DNA of 64,000 bases from a bacterium (GCA_018660415.1 JABJKG010000006.1:142448-206447); one strand, 5' to 3'; positions 24,291-62,539 are shown, counted from the stretch's first letter. The notes: generated from the letters alone by a model not told the origin. A program made the numbers and translations.

Positions 24291-25070
24291 GTGAAAAAAG
24301 TATCCTTAGTCGTAATTTTGGGTCTTGTAGTGTTACAGGTATCTGTAATTGAGGCTAAAAAGGCTGTTTCTTGCGTGACAAGGGCACCTAAAGTAGATAG
24401 AGTAAAAAGGAATTTAACCAAAAAAAAGTTGAAAAACAAGAGGATTTTGATGAATTACCCGTATAAACTACCAGAATTGGGATATGCTTTTGATGCCCTT
24501 GAGCCACATATCGACAAAGAAACGATGATTTTACACCTTACAAAGCATCAACAGGCTTATGTTAATAATTTGAACGCTATATTGGAGAATCACCCAGAAT
24601 TGCAAAAACGTTCGTTAGAAGACATTTTAAGTGACTTAAAATCGGTTCCTGAGGCTATTCGCCAAGGTGTTATCAATCAGGGTGGTGGTGTCCTCAACCA
24701 TACCATGTTCTGGACGATGATGAGTCCTCAGGGTGGTGGAGAACCTACAGGAGAGATTTTAGAGGCTATAAAGGCTAATTTTGGGTCATATGAGGCATTT
24801 AAAGAACAGTTTACCCAAACTGCCAAAAAGCTATTTGGTTCAGGTTGGGTCTGGTTGTCAGTCGATAAAGATGGCAAGTTGATTATGTCTACTTCTCCAG
24901 ATCAAGAAACACCACTTTCAGATGGTCTCAAGCCAGTAATGTGCTTTGATGTATGGGAGCATGCTTATTACTTAAAATATCAGAATAGGCGGCCAGAATA
25001 TATTGATGCTTGGTGGCACGTGGTGGACTGGGATCAAATTAACAGGAATTATATAGAGAGTAAAAAGTAA
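24291..25070 (+). CDS. Fe/Mn superoxide dismutase, possibly with an N-terminal signal peptide
   Basis: The core is YKLPELGYAFDALEPHIDKETMILHLTKHQQAYVNNLN ... DVWEHAYYLKYQNRRPEYI. The long form starts at GTG 24291, with AGGAG 5 nt upstream, and adds MKKVSLVVILGLVVLQVSVIEA plus a basic linker. An internal ATG at 24450 also has an AGAGGA site. Confidence 0.9.
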   Translation: MKKVSLVVILGLVVLQVSVIEAKKAVSCVTRAPKVDRVKRNLTKKKLKNKRILMNYPYKLPELGYAFDALEPHIDKETMILHLTKHQQAYVNNLNAILENHPELQKRSLEDILSDLKSVPEAIRQGVINQGGGVLNHTMFWTMMSPQGGGEPTGEILEAIKANFGSYEAFKEQFTQTAKKLFGSGWVWLSVDKDGKLIMSTSPDQETPLSDGLKPVMCFDVWEHAYYLKYQNRRPEYIDAWWHVVDWDQINRNYIESKK

Positions 25071-33544: not shown

Positions 33545-35974
33545 TTATTTCTTTTTTTTTCTAGTTTTTGTAGCAACTTTTTTCATTGGTTGGCTTTTCT
33601 TGAAAATTTTCTTTTCAAAGATTTGTCCTAGAACTTCATCAACATGATCAACAAACACTAATTTTAGGTCTTTGTCTACATCTTTGATGAATTCTTGAAC
33701 GTCATCATGGTTTTCCTTAGGAAGAAAAATCTTTTCGATACCATACCGCTTGGCTGCAAGTATTTTTTCTTTCAAGCCACCAACTGCAAGCACACGACCA
33801 CGTAATGTGATTTCTCCTGTCATTGCCACTTTCTTTTTTACAGAATTTTTTGACAATGCTGACACGAGGGCTGTACAGAGTGCAATCCCGGCAGAAGGAC
33901 CATCTTTAGGGGTCGCTCCTTCAGGTATATGGACATGAATATCTTTATTGTTTGCAAATGCAGCAGGTATTCCAAGCTCCTTACAACGGGATCGGATATA
34001 ACTAACAGCTGCTTGTGCAGACTCTTGCATCACTTCACCAAGTTGTCCAGTTAGTGTAGCAGTTCCTTTACCTGGCAAGACGGATGCTTCAATTTCGAGA
34101 ACATCGCCACCAACTTCAGTCCATGCTAGACCGGTAACCAGTCCGATGGAATCTTTCTTCTTAGGATCCAGTGTTGTTCGTTTATATTTAGTAAACCCAA
34201 GCCATTCTTTAATAAGAGTTGGTGTCACGGTGACACTTTTCTTTTCTTTTTTCAAGATTACTTGGATGGTTTTACGTAATAATTTAGCGACAACACGATC
34301 AAGCTGTCGAACTCCAGATTCTTTGGTGTATTCTTCAATCAGGATTTCAATAGCGGGAACCCCAAGTTTGAACTGGCGTCCATTGAGACCGTATTCCTTT
34401 AGTCCTTTAGGGATGAGGAATTTTTGAGCGATATCAACTTTTTCAGATTCTGTGTATCCTGCAAGGTTAACAATTTCCATACGATCAAAAAGTGGGTATG
34501 GAATGTTTTCCAGCATGTTAGCTGTAGTAATAAACATTACTTGAGATAGATCATATTCAAGATCAAGGAAATGATCTACAAATCCTTTGTTTTGTTCTGG
34601 ATCTAACACCTCTAATAATGCTGCTGATGGATCGCCATGAACGTCATTAGACATTTTATCGATTTCATCGAGCAATATAACTGGGTTTTTAACCTTAGCC
34701 TTTTTCATTGCTTGGATAATTTTACCAGGAAGCGCTCCTATATAGGTTCGCCTGTGGCCACGAATTTCAGCTTCATCTCGTACTCCACCGAGTGAAAGAC
34801 GAACAAACTCACGCCCAAGGCTTTCTGCAATAGTCTTTGCTAATGATGTTTTTCCAACACCAGGAGCACCTACAAAGCAAATAACCGGTGATCGTTCCTG
34901 AGATCCTCTAAACTTAATTGCTGCTAAGAACTCTAAAATACGCTCTTTTGCCTTTTGGAGACCAGCATGAGATTCATTGAGAATCTTTTCTGCCTTAGAG
35001 AGTGCAATATTATCTTTAGTAGCATTTTTCCAAGGTAATCCAGTTACCCATTCGACGTAATGACGGCTGACAACCGCTTCCGAAGAAAGTGGAGGCATTT
35101 GTTCTAAGCGCTTTAATTCTTTTTCTACTTTTTCATTAGCTTCTGTGGTGAGGCCTAAACTCTTCAAGGATTCACGTATTTTGATGATCTCAGAGGAGTG
35201 ATCATCACGACCTAGCTCTTTCTGGATAGCTTTCATTTGTTCGCTTAGATAGTATTCTCGTTGGTTTTTTTCAACCTGTGTTTGAATACGTCCTTTAATA
35301 CGTTGTTCTGTTTGAAGAATTTCTATTTCTTTTTGTAAAAGCCCTGCTACCTTGAGTATTCGTTGATTGAGGTCGAAGAGTTCTAATACAGCCTGTCTTT
35401 CATCGAAAGACAATGAAAGCTGAACAGCCATAGTATCGATTAAGTTGTCGATATCATCCATGGTACGTGCTTGAGCGAGTAAGTCCTGAGGAGCTCGATC
35501 ATTTAGCTTTGCATATTCGCCGTAGAGTTCTTTAGCCTGTCTCCACAATGCTTCGAGCTCGACGCTATTATTAGCATTGGTAGTTGGTAGGTCTTCGAAG
35601 TATGCACCCATAAACTCGCCATTGTCTTCTAAATGTACAATCTTAGCACGAGAAATTCCTTCAATGAGAATCTTGAGTGCATTATTTGGCATGCGGATAA
35701 CTTGCAAAATAGTGGCTCTGAGGCCATATTCGAAGATATCATCTCCAGTAGGGTTCTCAACATTAGGGTTCTTTTGTGCTGTGACAAAGAGGGACTTATT
35801 ATGTTTAAGGGCATACTCAACTGCCTGAATGGAGGATTTACGTCCTACGATTACAGGATTAATACTTTTTGGGAGGATGACCACGTTTTTTAGAGGAAGA
35901 ACTGATAGGTAATCAGTTTGCTCTTCTTCTGCCGATTGTGGCTCCTGTAGGGTGATTTCCTTTTCGTCTATCAT
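33545..35974 (-). CDS. lon: ATP-dependent Lon protease
   Basis: The 809-aa protein has a LON N-domain and an AAA+ module (GAPGVGKTSLAKTIA, ILLDEIDK). Its protease domain has the catalytic PKDGPSAG. Confidence 0.97.
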   Translation of the reverse strand: MIDEKEITLQEPQSAEEEQTDYLSVLPLKNVVILPKSINPVIVGRKSSIQAVEYALKHNKSLFVTAQKNPNVENPTGDDIFEYGLRATILQVIRMPNNALKILIEGISRAKIVHLEDNGEFMGAYFEDLPTTNANNSVELEALWRQAKELYGEYAKLNDRAPQDLLAQARTMDDIDNLIDTMAVQLSLSFDERQAVLELFDLNQRILKVAGLLQKEIEILQTEQRIKGRIQTQVEKNQREYYLSEQMKAIQKELGRDDHSSEIIKIRESLKSLGLTTEANEKVEKELKRLEQMPPLSSEAVVSRHYVEWVTGLPWKNATKDNIALSKAEKILNESHAGLQKAKERILEFLAAIKFRGSQERSPVICFVGAPGVGKTSLAKTIAESLGREFVRLSLGGVRDEAEIRGHRRTYIGALPGKIIQAMKKAKVKNPVILLDEIDKMSNDVHGDPSAALLEVLDPEQNKGFVDHFLDLEYDLSQVMFITTANMLENIPYPLFDRMEIVNLAGYTESEKVDIAQKFLIPKGLKEYGLNGRQFKLGVPAIEILIEEYTKESGVRQLDRVVAKLLRKTIQVILKKEKKSVTVTPTLIKEWLGFTKYKRTTLDPKKKDSIGLVTGLAWTEVGGDVLEIEASVLPGKGTATLTGQLGEVMQESAQAAVSYIRSRCKELGIPAAFANNKDIHVHIPEGATPKDGPSAGIALCTALVSALSKNSVKKKVAMTGEITLRGRVLAVGGLKEKILAAKRYGIEKIFLPKENHDDVQEFIKDVDKDLKLVFVDHVDEVLGQIFEKKIFKKSQPMKKVATKTRKKKK

Positions 35975-36427
35975 ATTTTTATTTGATCCTACGTAAAATT
36001 GATATTATACTGAGGAAGGTGATTTTCTGATTTAAAATTTTGCTTATTTATAAAGATAGTTTATCATAATTAAGCTTGAGAGTAAATGGGGATTTTTTAA
36101 ACCATTACCTTAAATAACAGGCACAGAGTGGCCTTTTCTTTCAGTGTTAGCCTTTGAATAATGCGTCTGAGTGACGTTTTAGGCTTTTCTATCTCTTTCT
36201 CGTGAAGATTTTTCAATGATAGGGACTGCTTTCCTTTGAAGAGGGGGGTGGGCTACTGGAGCATTCAAGTAATAAGTGTGTTAAAAGGGAGTGAATATGA
36301 TGGCAAAGTAATTAATAGGCGATTTTGAATTGAAAATAATTTTGGCAAAGTTGTGTAAGTTTGCTAAAATTAAAATTGAAATAGATTTATTTATTTTTTC
36401 TTACTTATTTTAAAGGATTGTTTCACT

Positions 36428-37795
36428 ATGATGTCATTTTTGAAAAGAATGTACGGCAACTTTCAAAGCCGTGAAGAAGTTTTCAAGTTTGTAGTTCTCG
36501 GATTCATATTTTTCCTTGTAATTGGAACCTACTGGACTCTACGTCCTTTGAAGGATGGATTGTTTCTTTCTATCGTTGGTGGAATCTACCAGCCTTATGC
36601 AAAGATACTTTCTATGTTTGCAGTTTTTCCGATTGTTATGTTCTACTCTAAACTTATCGATTGGTTCTCTCGAGATAAGGTGTTTTATATTTTAACGGCG
36701 TTCTACTGTGTAACTGCATTTGCTTTTGCATTAGCATTTATGAACCCAACAATTGGTCTTGCAAACACTGTAGAAAGCCCATCACGAATCTTGGGTTGGC
36801 TTTGGTACGTTTGGGTTGAAAGTTTTGGATCACTAATTGTTGCATTGTTCTGGGCGTATACCGCTGATATTACTGCACCAGATGTAGCAAAAAGAGGTTA
36901 CCCTCTGATTGTTCTCTTTGGTCAGCTGGGCAATATTCTTGGACCATTGTTTTTGACACCACTTGGAAAGAACTTTTTCAATGGTGACAGTAGTCCAGTT
37001 GTGGCTATTACAGGTGTTTTGATTTTCTGTATCGGTTTTATGGTTTGGATTTTCGGTAGAATTGTACCAGCAAGTCAACGTCAGGGTTATAAATCTGCTG
37101 ATGAAGCTAAGGTTGATAAGAAAGAAAAAGGAGAAGCTGGATTCTTTGAAGGTCTTTTCCTATTATTAAGAACTCCTTACCTATTGAGTATTTTCTTTAT
37201 TATTACAATTTTTGAAATGATTGTTACAGTATTTGATTTCTTACTTAAGATTAACGTTGCAGAAAACTTTGCGACAAGTGCTGAGCGAGTTGCATATTTA
37301 GGAAGCTATGCTTGGATGACCGGCTTGGTTGCATTCTTGTGTGTTATCCTTGGTATTAACAATATTCAACGTAAAGTTGGTATGACAGCGTCATTACTTA
37401 TTTTACCGTTCTTGGTTCTGTTTGCAGTATTAACATCTAAGTTCTACACTGGTCTTGCAGTATTCTTCTGGATCATGGTATTTGCTAAAGCTGTTAACTA
37501 TGCATTAAACCAACCAACATTGAAACAGCTTTACATTCCAACCAGTGCTGATGCGAAATACAAATCTCAAGCTTGGATTGAAATGTTTGGAAGTCGAGGA
37601 TCAAAAGGTACAGGTTCATTCTTTAATACATTCCGCGAAGGATTTATTAAGATGTCCGGTCCTGCTGGTGCCGCAGCATTTATGACGATATTCACATTTG
37701 GTGGTGTTGGATTAATTACCTTATGGGTACCAATTGCTATATATGCTTCAAGAAAATACAACACTGCAGTTAAGGAAAACAAGGTTGTATGTTAA
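36428..37795 (+). CDS. ATP/ADP translocase-like nucleotide transporter (NTT/Tlc family), copy 1 (divergent)
   Basis: The 455-aa protein has about 12 hydrophobic helices. Its N-terminus has the Tlc-like pattern FKFVVLGFIFFLVIGTYWTLRPLKDGLFLSIVG. It is collinear with the two downstream paralogs. Confidence 0.75.
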   Translation: MMSFLKRMYGNFQSREEVFKFVVLGFIFFLVIGTYWTLRPLKDGLFLSIVGGIYQPYAKILSMFAVFPIVMFYSKLIDWFSRDKVFYILTAFYCVTAFAFALAFMNPTIGLANTVESPSRILGWLWYVWVESFGSLIVALFWAYTADITAPDVAKRGYPLIVLFGQLGNILGPLFLTPLGKNFFNGDSSPVVAITGVLIFCIGFMVWIFGRIVPASQRQGYKSADEAKVDKKEKGEAGFFEGLFLLLRTPYLLSIFFIITIFEMIVTVFDFLLKINVAENFATSAERVAYLGSYAWMTGLVAFLCVILGINNIQRKVGMTASLLILPFLVLFAVLTSKFYTGLAVFFWIMVFAKAVNYALNQPTLKQLYIPTSADAKYKSQAWIEMFGSRGSKGTGSFFNTFREGFIKMSGPAGAAAFMTIFTFGGVGLITLWVPIAIYASRKYNTAVKENKVVC

Positions 37796-37824
37796 AAATA
37801 GTACGATATAAAGTATGATAAAAA

Positions 37825-37860
37825 AGAGCTCTCTAAGCAAATTAGAGAGCTCTTTTTCTT
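37825..37860 (+). terminator. Rho-independent terminator after NTT copy 1
   Basis: A 12-bp stem, AGAGCTCTCTAA-gcaaa-TTAGAGAGCTCT, is followed by TTTTTCTT. Confidence 0.85.
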
Positions 37861-37932
37861 AAAAAGGGTAGGGTTGTTAGTAGGAGTCAAAAAGAGGCAT
37901 ATTACTAATTTGTTGTAAGGGATTACGATACT

Positions 37933-39339
37933 ATGAGTTCTAAGTTTTGGAGTTTTTGGGACGTTGAGCGTTCAGAGTATTTGAAATTGGTCTATCTATC
38001 TTTGGCGTTCTTCTTTGTAATTGCGGCATACACCGTGATGAAGGATCTCAAGGATTCGATCTTTATTTATACGGTGGGGCGTTCGTATTTACCAACGGCA
38101 AAAATTTTATCTATGATTGTGTTGATTCCAGCAATTTTGTTGTTTTCATACTTAGTAGATAGAATGCGTCGGTATCGGCTGTTGTGTGCCTATAGCATTG
38201 CATTTAGCCTGATCGGGTTTGCTTGTGCTTATTTGCTGGGAAATCCAGTAGTAGGTTTAGATAATCCAGTAACAAGTCCGAATCGTTGGTTTGGTTGGTT
38301 CTTTTTCTTTTTTGTTGAAGGGTATTCACCTTTTATTGTGAGTCTGTTTTGGGCATTTGCTAACTCGATTAACAGTCCAAAAGAAACCAAAAAATATTAT
38401 TCATACATGGTTGCAGCTTCTAAGGTCGGCGGTATTGTTACGGCGGCATTTTCTTGGTATTTTTTCAGTTGTAATTTCAATTCTGCTGTACCGATCAGCG
38501 GAACGTTAAAACATCAAATAATTGTAGCGTTATCTTCAGCGTTATTATTATTAGTTCCGGTTGTTATTTTCTTCATGGTCAAAACGGTGCCAGGATACAT
38601 GCTTCATGGTTATGAAGCGGTTTATAAAGAAGAAAAGGCTATGAAAAAGGCTGGTAAAGAAAAAAGTGGCCTTTTTAGTGGATTGTGGCTTCTTTTTAAG
38701 GTTCCTTATGTGATGGGGATCTTTGGCATTATTTTCTTTTATGAAGTTATTAACGTGGTTTTGTCCTATCAGCGGTTAGTCTTGCTTGATACTGGCGCAA
38801 AAGATGTGGCAGAGTTGAGTTGTTCATTGTTAGAGCAAATGTTCTATGTACACGTTTTTGGTTTACTTATTGCTCTATTTGGAACTACGTACCTATTAAG
38901 AAAATATGGAGAGCGTAAGTGTCTTCTCTTTGTTCCTGTTTCGATAGGGGTATTGATTGCTATATTTATGGCTTTTGGGGCATGGCATTTCCATGTATTA
39001 ACATCGGTCTTTGTATTAATGCGATCTATTCACTATGCAATCAGCTATCCGGTTCGAGAAGCGCTGTATGTTCCGACTTTGAAAGAGATTAAGTTTAAAT
39101 CCAAGTCATGGATTGATTCATTTGGTCAGAAGTTTGCCAAGAGCTTTGGATCTACCTTTAATAAAATAGCCGAATCGGTTTTTGTACGGTATGGTGCCTC
39201 AGCATTTGTGTCGCTAGAAGCGGCATTTTTTGCTACACTAATAGGTTCATGGATCTTAGTGGCCTATTTTATTGGTCGGCGTTATAGTCAAGTAGTGAAA
39301 GACAACGAAATTATTGGGTTATCCAGCGATAACAAATAG
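37933..39339 (+). CDS. ATP/ADP translocase-like nucleotide transporter (NTT/Tlc family), copy 2
   Basis: The 468-aa protein has YLKLVYLSLAFFFVIAAYTVMKDLKDSIFIYTVGRSYLPTAKILSM. By eye, most positions are identical to copy 3 over the full length. Confidence 0.75.
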   Translation: MSSKFWSFWDVERSEYLKLVYLSLAFFFVIAAYTVMKDLKDSIFIYTVGRSYLPTAKILSMIVLIPAILLFSYLVDRMRRYRLLCAYSIAFSLIGFACAYLLGNPVVGLDNPVTSPNRWFGWFFFFFVEGYSPFIVSLFWAFANSINSPKETKKYYSYMVAASKVGGIVTAAFSWYFFSCNFNSAVPISGTLKHQIIVALSSALLLLVPVVIFFMVKTVPGYMLHGYEAVYKEEKAMKKAGKEKSGLFSGLWLLFKVPYVMGIFGIIFFYEVINVVLSYQRLVLLDTGAKDVAELSCSLLEQMFYVHVFGLLIALFGTTYLLRKYGERKCLLFVPVSIGVLIAIFMAFGAWHFHVLTSVFVLMRSIHYAISYPVREALYVPTLKEIKFKSKSWIDSFGQKFAKSFGSTFNKIAESVFVRYGASAFVSLEAAFFATLIGSWILVAYFIGRRYSQVVKDNEIIGLSSDNK

Positions 39340-39390
39340 GGTTAAAAATGAGCAAGCGGTGTATTACTAACTTGTTGCAAGGGATTTAAA

Positions 39391-40794
39391 ATGGGTTTTT
39401 TAGGCCAGAATTTTTTGAATCTAGATCGTTATGAGAAATTAAAGTTCTTGTACTTATCCGGGGCGTTTTTCTTTGTTATATCATCCTATACTGTAATGCG
39501 TGAGCTTAAAGACTCCGTTTTTATATATGTAGTGGGACGTTCTTACCTGCCTACAGCTAAAATACTTTCTATGATCGTTTTGATACCGGCAGTTTTACTG
39601 TTTGCTTACTTGGTTGATAGAATGAGACGATATCGATTGTTGTGTGTCTATACTATTGCATTTAGCTTGATAGGACTAGTCTGCGCTTATTTACTAGGGA
39701 ATCCTACTATTGGGTTGGATAATACAGTATCAAGTCCATATCGTTGGTTTGGTTGGTTTTTCTTCTTTTTTATCGAAGGATATTCACCATTCATAGTGAG
39801 TCTGTTTTGGGCGTTTGCCAACTCGGTAAGTAGTCCAAATGAAACAAAAAAGTACTATTCTTTTATGGTAGCGGGATCTAAGATTGGTGGCATGCTAGTG
39901 GCGGCGATTTCCTGGTATTTTTTCAGTTGTCAGTATACAGGTTCTATTGTTCTATCCAGTACAGTAAAGCATCAGCTTATTGTGGCTTCCTCGTCGGTGT
40001 TATTAATGATTGTACCGATTATTATACTTTGGATGATTCGGGTGGTTCCTGGGTATCGATTACATGGTTATGAGGCTGTATATAAAGAAGAAAAGGCTAT
40101 GAAAAAGGCTGGGGTAGAAAAGACTAGTATTTTTTCAGGATTATGGCTTTTGTTGAAGGTCCCTTATGTAATGGGTATTTTTGGCATGATCTTCTTTTAT
40201 GAGGTTATCAATGTGATTTTGTCATATCAGCGCTTGATTATAGCTGATAAGGCTGCTAATGATGTTGCAGGATTGAGTTGTTCCCTGTTTGAACAGAACT
40301 TTTTTGTACACTTGTTTAGTTTTTTAATCTCATTATTTGGTACAACCTACTTATTACGGAAGTATGGAGAGAGAAAGTGTCTTCTCTTTATTCCTATTGC
40401 TACAGGATTGTTGATTGTGGTGTTTATGCTCTTTGGTCACTGGCATTGGCATGTCTTGACTTCAGTGTTTGTTCTCATTCGCTCTATTAACTATGCTGTG
40501 AGCTACCCTGTTCGAGAAAGCCTCTATATTCCAACCTTGAAAGAGATCAAATTTAAGTCCAAGTCGTGGATCGATTCATTTGGTCAGAAGTTTGCCAAAA
40601 GCTTTGGTTCTACCTTTAATAAGATTGCTGAGTGGATCTTTGTTAATTATGGTGCAAATGCCTTTGTATCGGTTGAAGGAGGGTTTTTTGCTATTTTAAT
40701 AACGTCCTGGATCGCGGTTGCGTATCTTCTTGGGCGTCGCTATAGCAAGGTTATTAGAGATAATGAGATTATTGGGGTATCAGCATCAGATTGA
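39391..40794 (+). CDS. ATP/ADP translocase-like nucleotide transporter (NTT/Tlc family), copy 3
   Basis: The 467-aa protein is a tandem paralog of copy 2. Shared stretches include LKFLYLSGAFFFVISSYTVMRELKDSVFIYVVGRSYLPTAKILSM and KEIKFKSKSWIDSFGQKFAKSFGSTFNKIAE. Confidence 0.75.
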   Translation: MGFLGQNFLNLDRYEKLKFLYLSGAFFFVISSYTVMRELKDSVFIYVVGRSYLPTAKILSMIVLIPAVLLFAYLVDRMRRYRLLCVYTIAFSLIGLVCAYLLGNPTIGLDNTVSSPYRWFGWFFFFFIEGYSPFIVSLFWAFANSVSSPNETKKYYSFMVAGSKIGGMLVAAISWYFFSCQYTGSIVLSSTVKHQLIVASSSVLLMIVPIIILWMIRVVPGYRLHGYEAVYKEEKAMKKAGVEKTSIFSGLWLLLKVPYVMGIFGMIFFYEVINVILSYQRLIIADKAANDVAGLSCSLFEQNFFVHLFSFLISLFGTTYLLRKYGERKCLLFIPIATGLLIVVFMLFGHWHWHVLTSVFVLIRSINYAVSYPVRESLYIPTLKEIKFKSKSWIDSFGQKFAKSFGSTFNKIAEWIFVNYGANAFVSVEGGFFAILITSWIAVAYLLGRRYSKVIRDNEIIGVSASD

Positions 40795-40930
40795 TTATAG
40801 GCTTGTTATTGCACTTTTTGCCAATTCAGGTACACTATATTTGTATTATTTGTTAAATCTTGCTTTTTGTAAATTGGGGTGGCCATATGGCCTGAAAAGC
40901 AATAGTTAAAACCCTGAAGGGAAATTTTCG

Positions 40931-41965
40931 ATGATTGATTTTAGAGATTTAGTAAAACACGGCATTCACTTCGGTCACCAAACTAGTAAATGGTGTCCAA
41001 AAATGGCTCCTTATATCTGGGGACATAAAAACGGAATTCACCTTATTGACGTTTCCAAGTCAGCATTTGCTATGGATCAAGCAGCAAAATTCTTAGAATC
41101 TGTTGTAGCTGAAGGTAAGACTGTCTTATGGGTGGGTACTAAAAAATCTGCTCAAAAAGTTATTGGCGATGCTGGTAAAAAACTTAACATGCCAAGCGTA
41201 ACCTATCGTTGGATTGGTGGAACATTAACCAATCACTCACAAGTTAAAAAATCTGTAACCAAGTTGTTACATTATGAAGATATTATTGAAAAATCAGATG
41301 ATTTTTCTTACACCAAAAAAGAACTTAATGTTTTTGGTAAGTTGGTAGAAAGATTACAACGTACTGTTGGTGGAATCAGGACATTGAAGATGCCTTTGGG
41401 CGCAGTTGTGTTAGTAGACGTTCGTAAAGAAGATACTGCATTACGTGAAGCAAATATTGCTGGAATTCCTGTAGTTTCTCTTGTTGATACTAACAGTGAT
41501 CCATCATTGGTAGATTATATCATTCCTGCTAATGATGATTCTCCTAAGTCTATTCAGTTCGTTATTGAGCACTTAGTTAAGGCTGTTGAATCTGGAAAAG
41601 AGCAAGCTGATAAAGTAATGGCTGAAAAGAAAAAAGTTGCTGCTGAAAAGGCTGCAAAAGCAAAAGAAACAGCTGTTCCAAAAGCTGCTGCAAAGAAAGC
41701 TCCAGTTAAAGCTGCTGCAAAAGCGCCAGCTAAAGCTGCTGCCAAAGCACCAGTAAAGGCTGCTGATAAAAAAGAAGCTGCACCTAAGAAGGAAGCGGTT
41801 AAAAAGGCTGCTCCTAAGGCTGCTCCTAAAAAGACAACTGAAGCTCCTAAGGAAGCTGAAGTAAAGGCTGCTGATAAAAAAGAAGCTGCACCTAAGAAAG
41901 AAGCGGTTAAAAAGGCTGCTCCTAAGGCTGCTCCTAAAAAGACAGAATCAACAGATAAAAAATAA
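40931..41965 (+). CDS. rpsB: 30S ribosomal protein S2 with a ~100-aa Lys/Ala/Pro-rich C-terminal extension
   Basis: The S2 core is LVKHGIHFGHQTSKWCPKMAPYIWG ... GIPVVSLVDTNSDPSLVDYIIPANDDS. The tail is AEKKKVAAEKAAKAKETAVPKAAAKKAPVKAAAKAPAKAAAK... and includes a duplicated 28-aa unit. Confidence 0.93.
   Translation: MIDFRDLVKHGIHFGHQTSKWCPKMAPYIWGHKNGIHLIDVSKSAFAMDQAAKFLESVVAEGKTVLWVGTKKSAQKVIGDAGKKLNMPSVTYRWIGGTLTNHSQVKKSVTKLLHYEDIIEKSDDFSYTKKELNVFGKLVERLQRTVGGIRTLKMPLGAVVLVDVRKEDTALREANIAGIPVVSLVDTNSDPSLVDYIIPANDDSPKSIQFVIEHLVKAVESGKEQADKVMAEKKKVAAEKAAKAKETAVPKAAAKKAPVKAAAKAPAKAAAKAPVKAADKKEAAPKKEAVKKAAPKAAPKKTTEAPKEAEVKAADKKEAAPKKEAVKKAAPKAAPKKTESTDKK
41753..41944 (+). repeat. Two copies of an 84-nt direct repeat (108-nt period) inside the rpsB tail
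   Basis: The unit gtaaaggctgctgataaaaaagaagctgcacctaagaa.gaagcggttaaaaaggctgctcctaaggctgctcctaaaaagaca occurs at 41753-41836 and 41861-41944 with a single mismatch. Confidence 0.9.
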
Positions 41966-41972
41966 ACTGTTG

Positions 41973-42064
41973 GGAGAGGTGTCTGAGTGGTCGAAAGAGC
42001 ACGATTGGAAATCGTGTATGTCTCGAAAGGGGCATCGAGGGTTCGAATCCCTCTCTCTCCACCA
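41973..42064 (+). tRNA. tRNA-Ser (GGA), long variable arm, CCA encoded
   Basis: Hand fold: acceptor GGAGAGG/TCTCTCC (one G-U pair), anticodon stem with loop TTGGAAA, a long variable arm, T arm GAGGG-TTCGAAT-CCCTC, then A-CCA. Confidence 0.88.
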
Positions 42065-42077
42065 GAATTGATTAAAA

Positions 42078-42168
42078 GCTTGGGAAGCTCTAAGAATCGA
42101 TATGCTTTATTTTGTCAGGTCCGAGAGGAAGCAGCAAGGGGTATATTGGTTTTGTAGGCTTCCCTTTT
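42078..42168 (+). ncRNA. ffs: Small (4.5S-type) signal recognition particle RNA
   Basis: It contains the conserved domain IV core GTCAGGTCCGAGAGGAAGCAGCAAGG, with a GNRA-type GAGA tetraloop. The closing helix is GGGAAGC (42082-42088) paired with GCTTCCC (42158-42164), followed by a T-run. It sits immediately upstream of dnaX, as in many bacteria. The ends are approximate. Confidence 0.8.
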
Positions 42169-42228
42169 TTTATGGAGAAGTAATCGTTGGTGAGTTTGTT
42201 CAAGTACCTAGTCTAAAGTGAGCTTATT

Positions 42229-49978: not shown

Positions 49979-50677
49979 ATGAGTATGTTTAATGGCGTTG
50001 GAATGACTCAGTTGTTGTATCATTCAGATTTAATGACAAAAAGCGTCTTAATAATATTATTTATAACTTCAGTAATTTGTTGGACCGTATTTTTTTATAA
50101 GCTTGTCATGTGGCGAGCAAAAAGAGTACAGATCCGTAAAGCGTTATCACATATAAAAAATGCCGAAAATTTGGAAGATGTATTACATATAACAACTAAG
50201 TTTGCACATACACTTCCAGGATATTTTTTATCAAAGAACTTATCATATCTTAAATCATTATTAGTACATAAAAATGAACTTTCTCCTCAGTTGCAAAACC
50301 GTGAATGGGAAATGTTAGATCATTTGGTGTATCAAACCTTAGATAGTATCTTGCATAAAGAAGAATCTCTGCTTCCGTTCTTAGGAGCGACAGCGGCAAT
50401 TGCACCATTGTTAGGATTGTTTGGTACAGTATGGGGATTGGTTAATGCGTTTATGGATATCAGTCAAAAACAAAGTGCTGATATCACTGCCGTTGCGCCT
50501 GGTATTGCACAAGCGCTTATTACTACGGTAGCTGGGTTATTAGTTGCGATTCCGGCACTCGTTATGTTTTATATTTTAACCTTGCAGTTGCGTTCAATAG
50601 AGCAACGTCTTAATTCATTGGGCGATCGATTTTTATGGTTGGCTACGCGATTGTTTGTGAGTGAGAAAGGGAATTAA
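49979..50677 (+). CDS. tolQ: MotA/TolQ/ExbB-family proton channel
   Basis: It has the three-TM pattern with LGATAAIAPLLGLFGTVWGLVNAF and APGIAQALITTVAGLLVAIPA. It heads a tolQ-tolR-tolA-like-tolB cluster. Confidence 0.85.
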   Translation: MSMFNGVGMTQLLYHSDLMTKSVLIILFITSVICWTVFFYKLVMWRAKRVQIRKALSHIKNAENLEDVLHITTKFAHTLPGYFLSKNLSYLKSLLVHKNELSPQLQNREWEMLDHLVYQTLDSILHKEESLLPFLGATAAIAPLLGLFGTVWGLVNAFMDISQKQSADITAVAPGIAQALITTVAGLLVAIPALVMFYILTLQLRSIEQRLNSLGDRFLWLATRLFVSEKGN

Positions 50678-51102
50678 TGCGTAAAATAAGAAGGAGTAAA
50701 CTACGTAAGAACATTAGTGTTCCTGAAGTTTCTCTTACGCCTTTAATTGACACCGCATTAACGTTGCTGATTATTTTTATGATAACAGCGCCCATGATGC
50801 ATAGTGTGATTAAAGTTGATTTACCTAAAGCCAAAGAACAGGCGCCACAAGATTTTAATAAAGAGTCGCTCATGGTATCCATTGATAAGGCTGGAGTGAT
50901 ATTTATTAATAAAGAAAAAGTTTCTCTTTCTGCATTGATTGATTACTTAAAAAAGAGCCTTGTTCGTGATCCTAAAAATAATATCGTATTTATTCATGGC
51001 GATAAGTCATTACCCTATGAAACTATCATTACAACGTTTGATCAAGTGAGTGCTATAAAAGGGATAGAACATGTGGCATTGGTTACCCAAAAAACTCTCT
51101 AG
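50677..51102 (+). CDS. tolR: TolR/ExbD-family protein
   Basis: The 141-aa protein has EVSLTPLIDTALTLLIIFMITAP. Its start overlaps the tolQ stop. Confidence 0.85.
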   Translation: MRKIRRSKLRKNISVPEVSLTPLIDTALTLLIIFMITAPMMHSVIKVDLPKAKEQAPQDFNKESLMVSIDKAGVIFINKEKVSLSALIDYLKKSLVRDPKNNIVFIHGDKSLPYETIITTFDQVSAIKGIEHVALVTQKTL

Positions 51103-51802
51103 AAAAAGTAAGTTTTTTTATCAGATGATGCTTTTTGTAGCAGTACTGCATACAATCATTTGTGGGGGAGCATTTTATTTTTGTGGTGGTGTCAAAAAGC
51201 TTGGTGATGTGTTTGTGCATTCTCAATTATTACGACACAAGCTCGATTTTATTGTGATGCCGTATGCTCGTCATATTTCTAAGCGTTCGCTTAACAAGGC
51301 AATCAAAAAAAAGGCAGCAACTCAAAGCAAGAGTGTCAAAAAACCAATTAAAAAAGTGGTTAAAAAACCTAAGATAGTTCCTAAGGTCAAGAAGGCACAG
51401 CCGGTTAAGAAGGTAGTTCCTGAAAAGCCCAAGCAAGAGGTAAAAAAGAACATCTCACAGCGTGAAGTTAAGCCTGTTAAAAAAGAAGAAGTGAAGCCTA
51501 AAGCTATAGCAGAAGAGAAGGTAGATGATCCCATCTATATTGGTAAGGATGATATGGCTGCATTACTTATTCATGATGATATAGCGACGGCTTTACAACA
51601 GTACTGGAGTCCGCCTGCTGGTATAACTCCGGATCAGGTTTGTAAGATCTTAGTGGTTTTAAATGAAGTTGGTAAGATTAAAACATTACAGATCGTTCAA
51701 TCTTCGAAAATATTAGCATATGATATGGCTGCACAAATGGCTTTATCGCAAACCGAATTCCCAAAAAAGGCGTGGAACAATGAATTTACACTTAATTTCT
51801 AA
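51071..51802 (+). CDS. TolA-like protein (TM anchor, Lys/Pro/Val-rich spacer, TolA/TonB-C-like domain)
   Basis: It has the anchor MMLFVAVLHTIICGGAFYF, a spacer KKPIKKVVKKPKIVPKVKKAQPVKKVVPEKPK, and a C-terminal domain. An alternative start lies at 51125. The call rests on its position between tolR and tolB. Confidence 0.6.
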   Translation: MWHWLPKKLSRKSKFFYQMMLFVAVLHTIICGGAFYFCGGVKKLGDVFVHSQLLRHKLDFIVMPYARHISKRSLNKAIKKKAATQSKSVKKPIKKVVKKPKIVPKVKKAQPVKKVVPEKPKQEVKKNISQREVKPVKKEEVKPKAIAEEKVDDPIYIGKDDMAALLIHDDIATALQQYWSPPAGITPDQVCKILVVLNEVGKIKTLQIVQSSKILAYDMAAQMALSQTEFPKKAWNNEFTLNF

Positions 51803-53081
51803 ACGATGGTTATTTTTTATATGCTTGGTTTCTCAGCTGGTGCATGGCTTAGAGGTGACCGTTGAGAATAAAAAAAATACTAAGATGCCGTTAGCCCTTG
51901 TTACTATTAAACCGGTAACTAAAGAGCTCAAGAAGGTGTCACGAATAGTTGGACAGGATTTAGAAGCGGCAGGGCAGTTTAAAGTAGATCTATCTCATTC
52001 AAGTCCACTGAAAAATAAGAAAGAAATAACCAAGCTAGCATTGCAATCAAAAGCCTTGGCGATTTATTTATTATCGCCGGATGCTGATACTATTGAGTGG
52101 CGACTTTATAATACTTTTTCTGGGGACATGGTTGCCGGGAAACTTGTTAAGCGAGAAGGGCGATCTATAGATTTCTGGGCACATGTAATTGCAGATCAAA
52201 TTTGGCCACTTCTTACATCCGAGCTTGGATCGTTTGCTAGTGTTATTGTAGCTTGTAAGCGTGGAGCTCAAAAACGAAACCATAAAAAATACTCGCACTT
52301 GTTTGCATTCTGGCCAGTTGCCAATGGCACTACCCCACAGCCGGTAGTGCAGGGCGAGCGTATAAACTTTGCACCACGATGGCATCCAAGTCGCGCGCAG
52401 CTATTTTACTCTCAGCATAGTCCTTTTAATATTTCACTCATGTCAGTGTTACCTGGAGGAAAACCTCGTACCATCATGTCATTTGATGGTCAAAACATGA
52501 CCCCGGCTGTTTCAAAAAAGGGACGGGTAGTTATTTCCTTGTCTAACCGTGCAGACGCCCATTTGTATGAGTACCAATTTGACCCTAAAAGTAAGAGCGG
52601 AAGATTTGTATTATTGACTACCGGTGTTGGACAATATATTTCACCCTCATTTAACGGCGAGGATAATATCGTTTTCTGTTACATTAATAAGATGGGGCGT
52701 CCACGTATTGGGATGCTGAACTTAAAAGACAAGAGTATATCCTGGATATCCAAGGGCCATGGCGTTTCACCATGTGTGAGTGCTGATAACTCCAAATTGG
52801 CTTACTCCACTCGCGTAGATCGTTTACTGCAGTTATATTGTTATGACTTTAAGACTGGAGAACAACGACAGGTAACGTTTGACGATGGGCATAAAGATGA
52901 ATGCTCTTGGTCGCCGTGTGGTAACTACTTAGTTTATTCTTCAGAAAAGGGAGTAAATAGTCGTATTGGATGTTTACATCTTCCTACTAAATCAACGCGT
53001 TTTTTAACTCCTGTTGATGAACACTGGAGCTTTCCTGCCTGGTCACCCGTGTTTGAGCACAATATTCCCTTCATGAGATAA
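51780..53081 (+). CDS. tolB: Tol-Pal system beta-propeller protein TolB
   Basis: I placed the start at MNLHLISKRWLFFICLVSQLVHG (signal peptide). The protein has repeated propeller blades (PRWHPSRAQLFYS, SPCVSADNSKLAYS, CSWSPCGNYLVYSS, PAWSP). Confidence 0.8.
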   Translation: MNLHLISKRWLFFICLVSQLVHGLEVTVENKKNTKMPLALVTIKPVTKELKKVSRIVGQDLEAAGQFKVDLSHSSPLKNKKEITKLALQSKALAIYLLSPDADTIEWRLYNTFSGDMVAGKLVKREGRSIDFWAHVIADQIWPLLTSELGSFASVIVACKRGAQKRNHKKYSHLFAFWPVANGTTPQPVVQGERINFAPRWHPSRAQLFYSQHSPFNISLMSVLPGGKPRTIMSFDGQNMTPAVSKKGRVVISLSNRADAHLYEYQFDPKSKSGRFVLLTTGVGQYISPSFNGEDNIVFCYINKMGRPRIGMLNLKDKSISWISKGHGVSPCVSADNSKLAYSTRVDRLLQLYCYDFKTGEQRQVTFDDGHKDECSWSPCGNYLVYSSEKGVNSRIGCLHLPTKSTRFLTPVDEHWSFPAWSPVFEHNIPFMR

Positions 53082-59821: not shown

Positions 59822-62539
59822 TTAGTTAAGTTTATATATTTTACATCGTCGACTTACTGACGATCTGTTTACTCCTAAGAATGTAGCAATTTTATTCTGA
59901 TTTTTAAATTTATTCCATAAAAGAGTCATAATTTGTGGGTCACGGAGCGCATGTTTCCCAAGCTGTGCCGCTTGGATGAGTTGAGGATCAGCAGTATCGT
60001 AGGAGTGATCTACAATAGTTTCATACGACAATTCATTCTTTTTGGATTTCAAGGTGAGAATGTTTTTAATTTTTTGTTGTAGTTCGGTGATACTGACGGG
60101 CTTACTTTGGATTAATTTTTGTTTTTCCCTATCAGTCAGTTCTAGCAATGAATGAAACTCTTTAGTTTTGATAGCTTGATCAGTGAGTTTATCTGTGAGC
60201 TGAATGAGTTCTTCTTCTGGTAAGGAGAGTAGTGATGGAAGAGACGCTGTAGCCTGTTGCAGTTCTTCGTACAATAGAGGAGAAAATTTGTTTTCTTTTA
60301 CTAGGGTTGCCAAATCCTGGTTAGTTGAACAAATAATACGGGTATTGCTGGTATAGTTTTTAACACTATGAAGGGCAGTATAGATATTATATTTAATAAA
60401 GTTTGCCAAGCGCTTTTGATTTTCAAGATCGAGAAGGTGAATGTTTTTGATAAATAAGGTTCCATCATCAAGTTTTTGTAATAAAGGGCGTTCTTGAGAG
60501 GCTTTACCCATGAGGTGGGTATTCATACCAAATAGTTTAACGCTGGTATCAACACTCTTGGTAGTTGATTGGATTTCTAAAATATGTAAATGTTGGCGTA
60601 AACTAATATGATGGAATATTTCTACTGTTGGTACCAAATCACTATCAGGGATATTAAGCAGGATAGCCTTCTTGGTTAAAGCAAGCTTTAAAAGAGATAT
60701 TTTGAAGTTAAGAATAACTTCACCAGTACCAGGGAATAGTTGATTAATAAGTTTACCGCTTTTAGTGGTTTCGAGATATAAGAGATAATCCCAATTAGAA
60801 GGATCTTTTAAAGCATCTATCTGAGATTTTATAATATCGGCAATCTGGGGGTAGTAAACAGCAATGATAGTGTTTTTAGAGTCAAGGTTAGGTAAACAAT
60901 TGAGAACTAAAGAGTTTCCATCAGAATCAGTAGTGGTTGCTATTTGTGGAGTTTTATACTCTTCTACACGCGATACAATCTTGACAAACTCTTTGGTTAA
61001 CTCATTTCCCTTTTGTAGGTTGAGGTTGATTTTAACCAGTTCTTTGGCGTCTTGGTTGCCGAAAGTAAATTTATGGTTTTTATAAAAAATAATACCAATT
61101 TTTCTTTGGAGCTTATCTTTTAAGAATAGTCTAATACTTTCTTTGTATTGATTGTTTTCTTGATGTTTAAAGAAAAGAGCTTCTTTTAATGCTTTTTCTT
61201 TTTCAATGAGTATGTCTAGATTTCTATTTTGTAGGAGATAAATAATATTGCTGATGTAGCTACCAAATACTACCAATTCATCTCGTTCTGTGTCCGTATA
61301 GAGTTTCTGTTTACGGGCATCAGGCTCAATGATAATATATGCAAGAATTTTTTCTTGGTGGAATATTGGTAAGAAAATGTCAGCATCAATTTCTTCTAAG
61401 AACGTCAGTATAGTTTGTGATAAATGATTAGAGTTGTAGAAATTGCTAAATTCAATTTCATCTTTGATGAGAATTTTATTTTTGATCAAATATTCTAAAA
61501 TATCATTTTTTTCTTCATTGCGTTCAATGAAAGTTTCAACCTTATTGAGTTGAGGGTATTCGTGACTATCTCCACGCATTTGGCGTGTGAAAATTTGAGT
61601 TTTTCTAGAGTTGATATTGAGAGCTTCTTTGAAAAATATTTTAGTAATATGAGATATTTCACCAATTTCTGTTACTTTACTGAGTTGTTCAAGAACGACC
61701 TTGAAGTCGTTAATTAAGCTGAGTCTTTTAGGAGCTTCTACATGGCTTTTTAAATTTAAGAATCTTAATAGTATGATTTTTTTAGTACAGAACCAAATAG
61801 TCGCTGTAAGAAAAACTGATTGGAAGAAAATCAGTATATAGCTATCGAGTATATATTCTGTGACTAGCGATGAAGGATTTATTATCGGATAGATTTGGGC
61901 TAAAACAAAAAACATGTGCGGAGTCAATAATAGCCCAGTAATGATGGTAAGTTGTTTCTTTAAAATTTTTGGTATATCGCAATGGTTGGATGCAAGTTTA
62001 AATAACGTAATGATGAGAGTTATGCCCATAAGAGCGGTAGTATAAATAACAGCAGTTTTAAGGATGTTTTGGAAGGGCATAGAATGCATGTCTACTAAAT
62101 AAGTTGCAAATGCACTTATCAGAAAATAACCACTAAATGGAATCCCAATAGCAACGGCTACTTTATAAGGACGAGATATTTTATAATCTTGATAAAATAG
62201 GCAGGTTATCAAAAGGCTTATCGATTGCATTTGTACGATAAATAAGAACCATGCTATACGTTTAAAGACTTCAAATGCTTGCTCACTACAAACTTCTATA
62301 GCCATTGTATTTAAAAAATATTCCCTAATTATTTTGATAAGCCACGTCGCTTCTTCGGTTATAGCGCCGAGAAGTATTCCAAGTAAAAACAATAAAGGTA
62401 TAGCTCTTTTTCCTTGTCCCAGATAGAACTCTCGAATTAGAAAAAAGAAGATATACAATTTAATTGGAATTGTAACAGCATAAATAGCAGGGAGTGCCAT
62501 TTTGTGTGTAATAAAAAATGTAGTTAAGGTTGTAAGCAT
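59822..62539 (-). CDS. Polytopic membrane protein fused to a putative GAF-like region, a degenerate sigma54-activator-type AAA+ domain and a C-terminal Fis-type HTH
   Basis: Roughly 260 aa of hydrophobic helices at the N-terminus are followed by a central region ending ILAYIIIEPDARKQKLYTDTERDELVVFGSYISNIIYLLQ. Next comes an EBP-like block: KLFGMNTHLMGKASQERPLLQKLDDGTLFIKNIHLLDLENQKRLANFI ... TRIICSTNQDLATLVKENKFSPLLYEEL ... LPSLLSLPEEE. The C-terminus reads KIATFLGVNRSSVSRRCKIYKL. Confidence 0.6.
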   Translation of the reverse strand: MLTTLTTFFITHKMALPAIYAVTIPIKLYIFFFLIREFYLGQGKRAIPLLFLLGILLGAITEEATWLIKIIREYFLNTMAIEVCSEQAFEVFKRIAWFLFIVQMQSISLLITCLFYQDYKISRPYKVAVAIGIPFSGYFLISAFATYLVDMHSMPFQNILKTAVIYTTALMGITLIITLFKLASNHCDIPKILKKQLTIITGLLLTPHMFFVLAQIYPIINPSSLVTEYILDSYILIFFQSVFLTATIWFCTKKIILLRFLNLKSHVEAPKRLSLINDFKVVLEQLSKVTEIGEISHITKIFFKEALNINSRKTQIFTRQMRGDSHEYPQLNKVETFIERNEEKNDILEYLIKNKILIKDEIEFSNFYNSNHLSQTILTFLEEIDADIFLPIFHQEKILAYIIIEPDARKQKLYTDTERDELVVFGSYISNIIYLLQNRNLDILIEKEKALKEALFFKHQENNQYKESIRLFLKDKLQRKIGIIFYKNHKFTFGNQDAKELVKINLNLQKGNELTKEFVKIVSRVEEYKTPQIATTTDSDGNSLVLNCLPNLDSKNTIIAVYYPQIADIIKSQIDALKDPSNWDYLLYLETTKSGKLINQLFPGTGEVILNFKISLLKLALTKKAILLNIPDSDLVPTVEIFHHISLRQHLHILEIQSTTKSVDTSVKLFGMNTHLMGKASQERPLLQKLDDGTLFIKNIHLLDLENQKRLANFIKYNIYTALHSVKNYTSNTRIICSTNQDLATLVKENKFSPLLYEELQQATASLPSLLSLPEEELIQLTDKLTDQAIKTKEFHSLLELTDREKQKLIQSKPVSITELQQKIKNILTLKSKKNELSYETIVDHSYDTADPQLIQAAQLGKHALRDPQIMTLLWNKFKNQNKIATFLGVNRSSVSRRCKIYKLN

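What the first reader, a model, noticed from the sequence alone, without database searches (positions are those of the whole stretch)
36428..40794. Three tandem ATP/ADP-translocase-like (NTT/Tlc) transporter genes, two from a recent duplication
Three consecutive same-strand genes encode 12-helix proteins of 455-468 aa with the N-terminal Y..LR..KD.L pattern of TLC-family nucleotide transporters. Copy 1 is divergent and has its own strong terminator at 37825-37860. Copies 2 and 3 are identical at most positions. They also share a 27-nt 5' leader that includes the SD, tattactaa[t/c]ttgttg[t/c]aagggatt, at 37900-37926 and 39362-39388. NTTs are the hallmark of energy parasitism in Chlamydiae, Rickettsiales, some Dependentiae and microsporidia. 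Paralogs in those groups have diverged in substrate, for example ATP/ADP exchange, proton-driven NTP import and NAD import. The divergent copy and the duplicated pair may therefore have different specificities.
Basis: partly seen in the sequence, partly recalled or inferred. Interest (0 to 1): 0.55.

Follow-up and report, generated by a model that had tools for sequence, protein, structure and literature searches.

The report
Three tandem nucleotide-transporter genes, Dependentiae
These are three real, intact genes for ATP/nucleotide importers of the kind host-dependent bacteria use to take energy and nucleotides from their host, but this is a known, already annotated trait of the Dependentiae (TM6), and the "recent" duplication is in fact old.

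Summary
ORFs 36428-37795 (455 aa, c1), 37933-39339 (468 aa, c2) and 39391-40794 (467 aa, c3) all match Pfam TLC/PF03219 over their full length and above threshold, and better than generic MFS. AlphaFold models match the solved AtNTT1 and Chlamydia NTT1 structures best. The terminator after c1 and the shared 25-nt leader are both there.

One claim fails. The c2/c3 duplication is not recent: 75% aa identity, 72% nt identity, dS about 2.2 (saturated), dN/dS about 0.08. In the tree c2 and c3 each group with their own counterparts in two other genomes.

The window is 100% identical to a public Dependentiae MAG (GCA_018664705.1), where JGI already calls these proteins ATP:ADP antiporters. A c1-type plus c2-type pair upstream of rpsB is the commonest layout in 80 Dependentiae genomes. 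The c1 family keeps all four classical charged NTT residues (E385 as D). The c2 family has lost E385 (S/N/G). c2 and c3 differ only by conservative changes.

The likely reading is an ATP/ADP exchanger (c1) plus two near-redundant nucleotide importers (c2, c3). Substrates are inferred, not shown. Multiple tandem NTT paralogs with key-residue substitutions in TM6 were published in 2016, so interest is low.

The parts
36342..36370 (+). Promoter-like site for c1: TTGGCA, 17 nt, TAAAAT, with TG before the -10 element.
   Evidence: This is one of the two best-scoring sites (10 of 12) in the consensus scan, although the scan as a whole is not above chance. The same TTGGCAAAGT...TAGAAT arrangement is conserved upstream of c1 in L004, L006 and L007. 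Function is inferred.
36428..37795 (+). c1: a c1-type NTT/TLC transporter of 455 aa. Candidate ATP/ADP exchanger.
   Evidence: PF03219 scores 100.1 bits. AtNTT1 (9j3j) matches at E = 6e-15. The AF2 model has pLDDT 88.6, and its best PDB matches are 9j3l, 9j3m and 9j3n at TM 0.77-0.80. R39, K59, E131, D270 and K393 align with RpTlc1 R46 and AtNTT1 K155, E245, E385 and K527, and are invariant in 119 of 119 family members. The ortholog in L004 is 85% identical, with dN/dS about 0.06.
37821..37857 (+). Intrinsic terminator hairpin after c1.
   Evidence: The stem is 16 bp, dG -22.6 kcal/mol, z = -4.8. It is conserved in L004 with one A-U pair changed to G-U. Terminator-like hairpins occur at 40 of 59 c1-to-c2-type junctions in other Dependentiae.
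37900..37926 (+). c2 leader, including the Shine-Dalgarno sequence AAGGGA.
   Evidence: It is 25 of 27 nt identical to the c3 leader and unique in the window. It is conserved upstream of the c2 orthologs in L004 and L006 even though coding synonymous sites are saturated. There is no RNA-structure signal and no Rfam hit.
37933..39339 (+). c2: a c2-type NTT/TLC transporter of 468 aa.
   Evidence: PF03219 scores 75.8 bits. CpNTT1 (9j3n) matches at E = 1e-8. The AF2 model has pLDDT 89.5, and its best PDB matches are 9j3m, 9j3l and 9j3n at TM 0.75-0.79, against 0.63 or less for other MFS proteins. K37, K57, E129 and K403 are kept. The E385 position is S278.
39362..39388 (+). c3 leader, a copy of the c2 leader that includes the Shine-Dalgarno sequence.
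   Evidence: The c3 orthologs in L004 and L006 carry a different, 19-nt spacer instead. No terminator lies between c2 and c3.
39391..40794 (+). c3: a c2-type NTT/TLC transporter of 467 aa, an old paralog of c2.
   Evidence: PF03219 scores 62.0 bits. It is 75% identical to c2. It groups with RIF36_c3 and P0004 at 85.5% bootstrap. It is an exact match to public protein P0005, named 'ATP:ADP antiporter, AAA family' by JGI.

Best explanation
The locus encodes three intact, selectively maintained members of the NTT/TLC nucleotide-transporter family in the chromosome of a Dependentiae (TM6/Babeliales) bacterium, a lineage that depends on eukaryotic hosts.

Shown:
- c1 and c2/c3 represent two ancient paralog families.
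- These families sit side by side, in the order lon | c1-type | c2-type | rpsB | dnaX, in most Dependentiae genomes sampled.
- An intrinsic terminator usually lies between the two types.
- In the lineage of this window the c2-type gene was duplicated in tandem long ago. Synonymous sites are saturated, and each copy has its own orthologs in two other genomes.
- Both copies are kept under purifying selection.

Inferred:
- c1 keeps all four charged transmembrane residues known to matter in AtNTT1 (with E385 as D). It is the likelier ATP/ADP(+Pi) counter-exchanger that taps host ATP. I put this at about 0.5.
- The c2-type proteins have lost the TM7 acidic residue at the E385 position but keep another invariant TM7 glutamate (E271). 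They probably import nucleotides with a different specificity or coupling mode, supplying an organism that cannot make nucleotides.
- c2 and c3 differ only conservatively. They are probably near-redundant in substrate and differ in dosage or expression.
For: Family:
- PF03219 matches are full length and above the cut-off, and beat MFS_1.
- The only PDB sequence hits are AtNTT1 and C. pneumoniae NTT1.
- The AF2 models have pLDDT 88.6-89.5 and match the NTT structures best at TM 0.75-0.80, against 0.68 or less for other MFS proteins.

Organism:
- 17.4 kb of the window is 100% identical to GCA_018664705.1.
- Homologs are named as Babeliales, Dependentiae or TM6.

History:
- dS = 2.17 and dN/dS = 0.08 for c2 against c3.
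- The NJ tree places c2 and c3 in separate ortholog groups, with bootstrap 67% and 85.5%. The single-copy P0006 lies outside both.
- The same three-gene locus occurs in L004 and L006. L007 has a two-gene version, and L008 has a pair whose two copies are each other's closest relatives, so apparently an independent duplication.
- 'c1 c2-type rpsB dnaX' is the commonest layout among 80 GTDB loci.
- Terminators lie at 40 of 59 c1-to-c2-type junctions.

Residues:
- The c1 family has R, K, E, D, K in 119 of 119 members.
- The c2 family has S, N or G at the E385 position in 104 of 115 members.
- E271 (c2) and E263 (c1) are invariant.
- Only 15 fixed differences separate c2 from c3, and all are conservative.

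Biology:
- TM6 genomes lack nucleotide synthesis and carry several ATP/ADP translocase paralogs (PMC4776705, PMC6561590, PMC4378268).
Against: - No transport assay exists for any Dependentiae NTT in the literature I could search.
- All three proteins score far below the TIGR00769 cut-off, at 102, 56 and 52 bits against 387. They are distant from every characterised NTT, at 18-22% identity to AtNTT1 and CpNTT1.
- NTT substrate range cannot be predicted from sequence. Microsporidian NTTs lacking three of the four charged residues were studied as functional purine nucleotide transporters (PMC4256464). Assigning the exchanger role to c1 and the importer role to c2/c3 could therefore be the wrong way round.
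- The bootstrap for the c2 ortholog group is only 67%.
- The rest of this genome was not examined for further NTT paralogs.
Confidence: 0.8

Rival explanations
1. c2 and c3 have split their function, for example purine against pyrimidine nucleotides, or NTPs against dNTPs. On this view the triple array gives three distinct specificities, as with Rickettsia Tlc1/4/5 or Protochlamydia NTT1-5.
For: Both copies have been kept under purifying selection since before three genomes diverged. The two fixed differences at positions 37-38 lie in the TM1 motif (MKDLKD against MRELKD) that contains the position aligned with RpTlc1 R46. Functional divergence of paralogs is documented in other NTT-bearing lineages (PMC4776705).
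Against: Only 15 fixed differences separate the two ortholog groups. All are conservative (K/R, D/E, V/I, F/L, S/A and similar), and 274 of 470 columns are identical in all six sequences. Related lineages manage with one c2-type gene (L007, and most of the 80 loci).
Confidence: 0.25
2. The c2-type family does not carry standard nucleotides. It carries another phosphorylated or adenylated metabolite, such as NAD+ (as in PamNTT4), or another cofactor.
For: The c2 family has lost the E385-equivalent acidic residue. Its TLC and TIGR00769 scores are low. Dependentiae lack many cofactor pathways (PMC4776705).
Against: K155, E245 and K527 equivalents are kept in 98, 114 and 112 of 115 members. The fold matches nucleotide-bound NTT structures best. 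Characterised NTTs with substitutions at E385 are still treated as nucleotide transporters (PMC10654386, PMC4256464).
Confidence: 0.1
3. c2 and c3 look alike because of a recent duplication or ongoing gene conversion.
For: The 25-nt leader is 93% identical between the two copies. Short coding stretches, codons 221-240 and 381-400, reach 82-93% nucleotide identity.
Against: dS = 2.17 and third-position identity is 0.50 overall. c2-c3 divergence within the genome equals c2-c2 and c3-c3 divergence between genomes. The tree separates the ortholog groups. The leader is equally conserved between c2 orthologs of different genomes, so selection is enough to explain it.
Confidence: 0.05

Closest known systems
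ATP/ADP translocase (NTT) paralogs of candidate phylum TM6/Dependentiae (Yeoh et al. 2016, PMC4776705; B. massiliensis with three copies, PMC4378268; C. destructans with two tlcC copies, PMC6561590)
   Same: Same phylum and same protein family. The paralogs are multiple and often adjacent, duplications arose independently in different lineages, and substitutions occur at the K155/E245/E385/K527 positions. Homologs include the SOIL31 MAG from that study, Vermiphilus pyriformis and strain Noda2021.
   Different: Nothing differs in kind. What this analysis adds is detail: a split into a c1-type family (all charges kept) and a c2-type family (E385 lost), conserved placement upstream of rpsB, and an internal terminator.
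AtNTT1 and Chlamydia pneumoniae NTT1 (PDB 9j3j, 9j3l, 9j3m, 9j3n, 9j3o), the canonical ATP/ADP counter-exchangers
   Same: A 12-TM MFS-like fold with TM-score 0.75-0.80. The TM1 LR/K..KD motif, K155, E245 and K527 are conserved, and c1 also keeps an acidic residue at E385.
   Different: Identity is only 18-22%. The proteins are about 455-468 aa. They fall far below the TIGR00769 cut-off. The c2-type has S at E385. All Dependentiae members carry an extra invariant TM7 glutamate (E271 in c2, E263 in c1) where AtNTT1 and CpNTT1 have Gly.
Paralog sets with divergent specificity: Chlamydia Npt1/Npt2, Rickettsia Tlc1-5, Protochlamydia NTT1-5
   Same: Several NTT paralogs in one host-dependent bacterium, some exchanging ATP for ADP and others importing other nucleotides. 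This statement rests on established knowledge cited in PMC4776705.
   Different: There is no orthology. TM6 NTTs form their own clade (PMC4776705), so specificities cannot be carried over.

Membership tests
NTT / TLC nucleotide transporters (Pfam PF03219; TC 2.A.12) | Full-length match to the TLC profile above the curated threshold, and better than the generic MFS profile. | tested here: met
   Scores are 100.1, 75.8 and 62.0 bits against a cut-off of 21. They cover profile positions 20-454, 14-491 and 13-491 of 491. MFS_1 scores 22.7-28.6 bits, below its cut-off of 33.4.
NTT / TLC nucleotide transporters (Pfam PF03219; TC 2.A.12) | A 12-helix MFS-like fold closest to experimentally solved NTT structures. 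| tested here: met
   AF2 pLDDT is 89.5 for c2 and 88.6 for c1. The top Foldseek PDB hits are 9j3l, 9j3m and 9j3n, with E = 5e-14 to 3e-12 and TM 0.75-0.80. The next MFS proteins have TM 0.68 or less. c3 was not modelled; it is 75% identical to c2.
NTT / TLC nucleotide transporters (Pfam PF03219; TC 2.A.12) | The four charged transmembrane residues of AtNTT1 (K155, E245, E385, K527). | tested here: inconclusive
   c1 has K59, E131, D270 and K393, so all charges are kept, and this holds in 119 of 119 family members. c2 and c3 have K57, E129, S278 and K403, so E385 is lost; the family has S, N or G there in 104 of 115 members. Known functional NTTs also deviate at these sites (PMC4256464), so the feature is not strictly defining.
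Canonical NTP/NDP exchange transporters (NCBIfam TIGR00769 'AAA') | A score at or above the curated cut-off of 387.2 bits. | tested here: not met
   Scores are 101.9, 56.2 and 51.9 bits. These proteins are remote relatives of the canonical Chlamydia, Rickettsia and plastid group, not members of it as that model defines it.
NTT / TLC nucleotide transporters (Pfam PF03219; TC 2.A.12) | Demonstrated transport of nucleotides, by counter-exchange or H+-coupled uptake. | not testable with these tools
   This needs heterologous expression and radiolabelled uptake assays. I found no such data for any Dependentiae NTT.
   dS = 2.17 and third-position identity is 0.50. c2 and c3 group with orthologs from L004 and L006 rather than with each other.
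Dependentiae (TM6) conserved NTT cassette | A c1-type gene directly upstream of a c2-type gene, next to rpsB, in a Dependentiae genome. | tested here: met
   The layout lon | c1 | c2-type (x1-2) | rpsB | dnaX occurs in the window, L004, L006, L007 and L008. 'c1+ c23+ rpsB+ dnaX+' is the commonest layout among 80 GTDB loci.

The most novel reading that the evidence does not exclude
The c2-type family is found across Dependentiae. It lacks the E385 acidic residue but carries its own invariant TM7 glutamate. It could be a mechanistically distinct NTT class, for example proton-coupled net import of NTPs or dNTPs, or of a cofactor. It would be paired in a fixed cassette with a c1-type ATP/ADP exchanger and expressed separately from it through the internal terminator. 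On this reading the retained c2/c3 duplicates would split substrates between them.
Probability: 0.25. Interest if true: 0.4.

Novelty: already known. Interest (0 to 1): 0.15.

Why it matters
NTTs are how obligate intracellular bacteria take ATP and nucleotides from their hosts. Finding them supports a host-dependent lifestyle for this marine Dependentiae MAG. That conclusion, together with multiple and tandemly duplicated paralogs carrying key-residue substitutions, has been published for the phylum since 2016. JGI already annotates these exact proteins as ATP:ADP antiporters, although NCBI lists them as hypothetical proteins.

The modest added value is a cleaner picture of two ancient paralog types in a conserved cassette next to rpsB. 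That picture points to which proteins to express if someone wants the first biochemical characterisation of a Dependentiae NTT.

Tried and rejected
- Riboswitch or other known RNA element in the leaders and the 453-nt lon-c1 spacer. Rfam found nothing above threshold in the whole window except four tRNAs and the SRP RNA. The permissive search of 35900-41000 gave only chance-level hits with E of 0.47 or more.
- RNA structure in the shared c2/c3 leader. The z-scores are -0.9 and +0.6, so there is no signal.
- Recent duplication or gene conversion. Rejected by dS, by the pairwise identity matrix and by the tree.
- The promoter/terminator scanner. Counts are at chance level: 13 promoter-like sites against 15.8 expected, and 5 terminator-like sites against 4.1. 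It missed the real c1 terminator, probably because the T-run forms part of the stem. The terminator was confirmed by folding instead.
- A leader motif shared by c2-type genes across the phylum. Only the purine-rich Shine-Dalgarno sequence (AGGGG/AAGGG) recurs. The TTACTAAT part is limited to the closest relatives.
- Nucleotide-contact residues from the 2025 NTT structures.
- Other NTT paralogs. None occurs in the window. The rest of this genome could not be checked, because no locus from GCA_018664705.1 was among the 80 loci kept from the GTDB representative-genome scan.
- AtNTT1 and CpNTT1 sequences. I transcribed them from the HMMER alignments, and their lengths checked out at 471 and 479 residues.


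Full report
**Observation.** They lie between lon on the minus strand (33545-35974) and rpsB (40931-41965). No other relative occurs in the 64-kb window.

- The hairpin after c1 is a perfect 16-bp stem with a 5-nt loop at 37821-37857. It has dG -22.6 kcal/mol and z = -4.8, and none of 200 shuffles folds as well.
- The shared leader TATTACTAAYTTGTTGYAAGGGATT occurs exactly twice, at 37900 and 39362, with zero matches expected by chance.
- c2 and c3 are 75% identical in protein without gaps.
- c1 is 30% identical to each of c2 and c3.

**Family.** All three proteins match Pfam TLC (PF03219) over almost the whole profile. Scores are 100.1, 75.8 and 62.0 bits against a cut-off of 21, while MFS_1 stays below its own cut-off.

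- The only PDB sequences hit are Arabidopsis NTT1 and Chlamydia pneumoniae NTT1.
- AlphaFold models built on family alignments are confident, with pLDDT 89.5 for c2 and 88.6 for c1, and show about twelve long helices.
- Foldseek ranks the NTT structures 9j3l, 9j3m and 9j3n first at TM 0.75-0.80. Other MFS transporters reach 0.68 at most.
- The proteins are nevertheless remote from the canonical group. They score 102, 56 and 52 bits against the 387-bit cut-off of TIGR00769, and are 18-22% identical to the solved NTTs.

**Organism and public status.** The 17.4 kb around the locus is 100% identical to GCA_018664705.1 contig JABJNT010000003.1 and to two metagenome contigs.

- c1 and c3 are exact matches to public proteins. 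NCBI calls them 'hypothetical protein HOM50_02555/02565 [bacterium]', and JGI calls them 'ATP:ADP antiporter, AAA family'.
- Hundreds of homologs at about 45-57% identity are labelled Candidatus Babeliales, Dependentiae or TM6, and many are named 'Npt1/Npt2 family nucleotide transporter'.
- The rest of the window holds ordinary housekeeping genes of a small genome. These include GAPDH, GyrB, DnaJ, a class II aminoacyl-tRNA synthetase (Asp/Lys/Asn type), RecJ, Cmk, Lon, RpsB, DnaX, FtsH, a PBP and XerC/D.

**The duplication is old.** Over 467 codons c2 and c3 are 72% identical in DNA, with third-position identity 0.50. dN = 0.18 and dS = 2.17, which is saturated, giving dN/dS of about 0.08.

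- c2-c3 divergence within the genome is the same as c2-c2 and c3-c3 divergence between this genome and the Rifle TM6 MAG RIFCSPHIGHO2_12_FULL_36_22.
- In a neighbour-joining tree win_c2 groups with RIF36_c2 and P0001 (67% bootstrap), and win_c3 groups with RIF36_c3 and P0004 (85.5%).
- The only c2-type gene of locus L007 (P0006) branches outside both groups.
- The same three-gene locus with the same flanks occurs in L004 and L006. L007 has the two-gene form.
- L008 has three genes, but its two c2-type copies are each other's closest relatives (100% bootstrap). That indicates an independent duplication or concerted evolution there.

**A conserved cassette.** A scan of one genome per GTDB species found 494 stretches encoding relatives. 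Among the best 80 loci the commonest arrangement is c1-type, c2-type, rpsB, dnaX (38 loci, plus shorter versions of it). Arrays with two c2-type genes are a minority. The ancestral state is therefore a pair of ancient paralogs, and the window carries that pair plus one old extra copy.

- A strong terminator-like hairpin lies between c1 and the c2-type gene at 40 of 59 junctions. This count is crude, because ORF starts were taken as the longest possible.
- In L004 the c1 terminator is conserved, with one A-U pair changed to G-U.
- A TTGGCA-17-TA(A/G)AAT promoter-like site upstream of c1 is conserved in L004, L006 and L007.
- This layout suggests the two types are expressed at different levels or times. 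That is an inference.

**Leader.** The c2 leader is conserved between c2 orthologs of the window, L004 and L006, although synonymous sites in the coding region are saturated. It is therefore under selection. In the window c3 carries the same leader, while the c3 orthologs in L004 and L006 have an unrelated 19-nt spacer. The leader contains the Shine-Dalgarno sequence AAGGGA. It shows no RNA structure signal and no Rfam match. What it does beyond ribosome binding is not determined.

**Residues.** I aligned 119 c1-family and 115 c2-family proteins with AtNTT1 and CpNTT1, whose sequences I transcribed from the HMMER output and checked for length.

| AtNTT1 position (RpTlc1 for the first row) | c1 | c1 family (119) | c2 / c3 | c2 family (115) |
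|---|---|---|---|---|
| RpTlc1 R46 (assumed equivalent) | R39 | R, invariant | K37 / R37 | K or R in 111 |
| K155 | K59 | K, invariant | K57 | K in 98 |
| E245 | E131 | E, invariant | E129 | E in 114 |
| E385 | D270 | D, invariant | S278 | S, N or G in 104; D in 7 |
| K527 | K393 | K, invariant | K403 | K in 112 |

Both families carry an invariant glutamate seven residues upstream in the same helix, E263 in c1 and E271 in c2. AtNTT1 and CpNTT1 have Gly at that position. This residue might take over the role of E385, which is an inference.

Between the c2 and c3 ortholog groups there are only 15 fixed differences, and all are conservative.

**Mechanism (inferred).** Dependentiae lack nucleotide biosynthesis and have little means of making ATP, and NTTs are thought to supply both (PMC4776705, PMC6561590).

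- I propose c1 as the ATP/ADP(+Pi) counter-exchanger.
- I propose the c2-type proteins as importers with a different specificity or coupling.
- c2 and c3 are probably near-redundant in substrate.
- The caveat is explicit in the literature. Substrate range cannot be predicted from NTT sequence, and microsporidian NTTs with three of the four charged residues replaced were studied as functional purine nucleotide transporters (PMC4256464).

**Novelty.** Yeoh et al. 2016 (PMC4776705) already reported several points for TM6:
- All TM6 genomes studied carry ATP/ADP translocases.
- The translocases form a TM6 clade.
- They were duplicated independently several times, and adjacency was used to infer the duplications.
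- Some paralogs carry substitutions at K155, E245, E385 or K527, which suggests neofunctionalisation.

B. massiliensis has three copies (PMC4378268) and C. destructans has two (PMC6561590). The window's genes are public and annotated. I found no functional assay of a Dependentiae NTT. The finding is correct in substance but ordinary.

Noticed in passing
window 40931-41965: Ribosomal protein S2 is 344 aa long. It has a C-terminal tail of about 100 aa rich in Lys, Ala and Pro, in which the block ADKKEAAPKKEAVKKAAPKAAPKKT occurs twice. Orthologs in related loci are 308-338 aa, so the tail length varies.
   Followed up: no
window 41973-42170: A tRNA (41973-42061) and the small SRP RNA (42079-42170) sit directly between rpsB and dnaX.
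   Followed up: no
window 35975-36427; L004 6200-6497: The lon-c1 spacer is 453 nt long. It contains blocks that are nearly identical in the Rifle TM6 MAG, for example ttgcttatttataaagatagtttatcataatt and atttttatttgatcctacgtaaaattg. No Rfam family matches them. They may be promoter or operator elements for lon or c1.
   Followed up: partly
L008 6001-8983: A more distant Dependentiae contig has its own tandem pair of c2-type genes, P0008 and P0009. They are 76% identical and each other's closest relatives (100% bootstrap). So the same gene was duplicated, or homogenised, independently at the same locus.
   Followed up: partly
L015, L025, L029, L048, L073, L083 and others: Several GTDB records titled Pseudomonadota, Alphaproteobacteria, Epsilonproteobacteria or Saccharimonadales carry c2-type genes at 43-50% identity. 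Their taxonomic labels may be wrong. Their gene layout was not checked locus by locus.
   Followed up: no
window 59822-62539 (minus strand): A 905-aa ORF has only a partial sigma-54-interaction (AAA+) domain near its C-terminus (residues 666-770) and nothing recognisable before it. It overlaps the most AT-rich part of the window (GC 0.326 at 60001-62000).
   Followed up: no
window 24291-25070: The ORF as called (GTG start) gives an Fe/Mn superoxide dismutase with an N-terminal extension of about 57 aa before the SOD domain. It could be a signal or targeting sequence, or an artefact of the start call. SOD is a noted feature of Dependentiae (PMC4776705).
   Followed up: no
window 49979-53081: A Tol/Ton-like cluster holds a MotA/TolQ/ExbB protein, a protein with a TonB C-terminal domain and a PD40 beta-propeller (TolB-like) protein. 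A second TonB_2-domain protein lies at 15709-16635.
   Followed up: no
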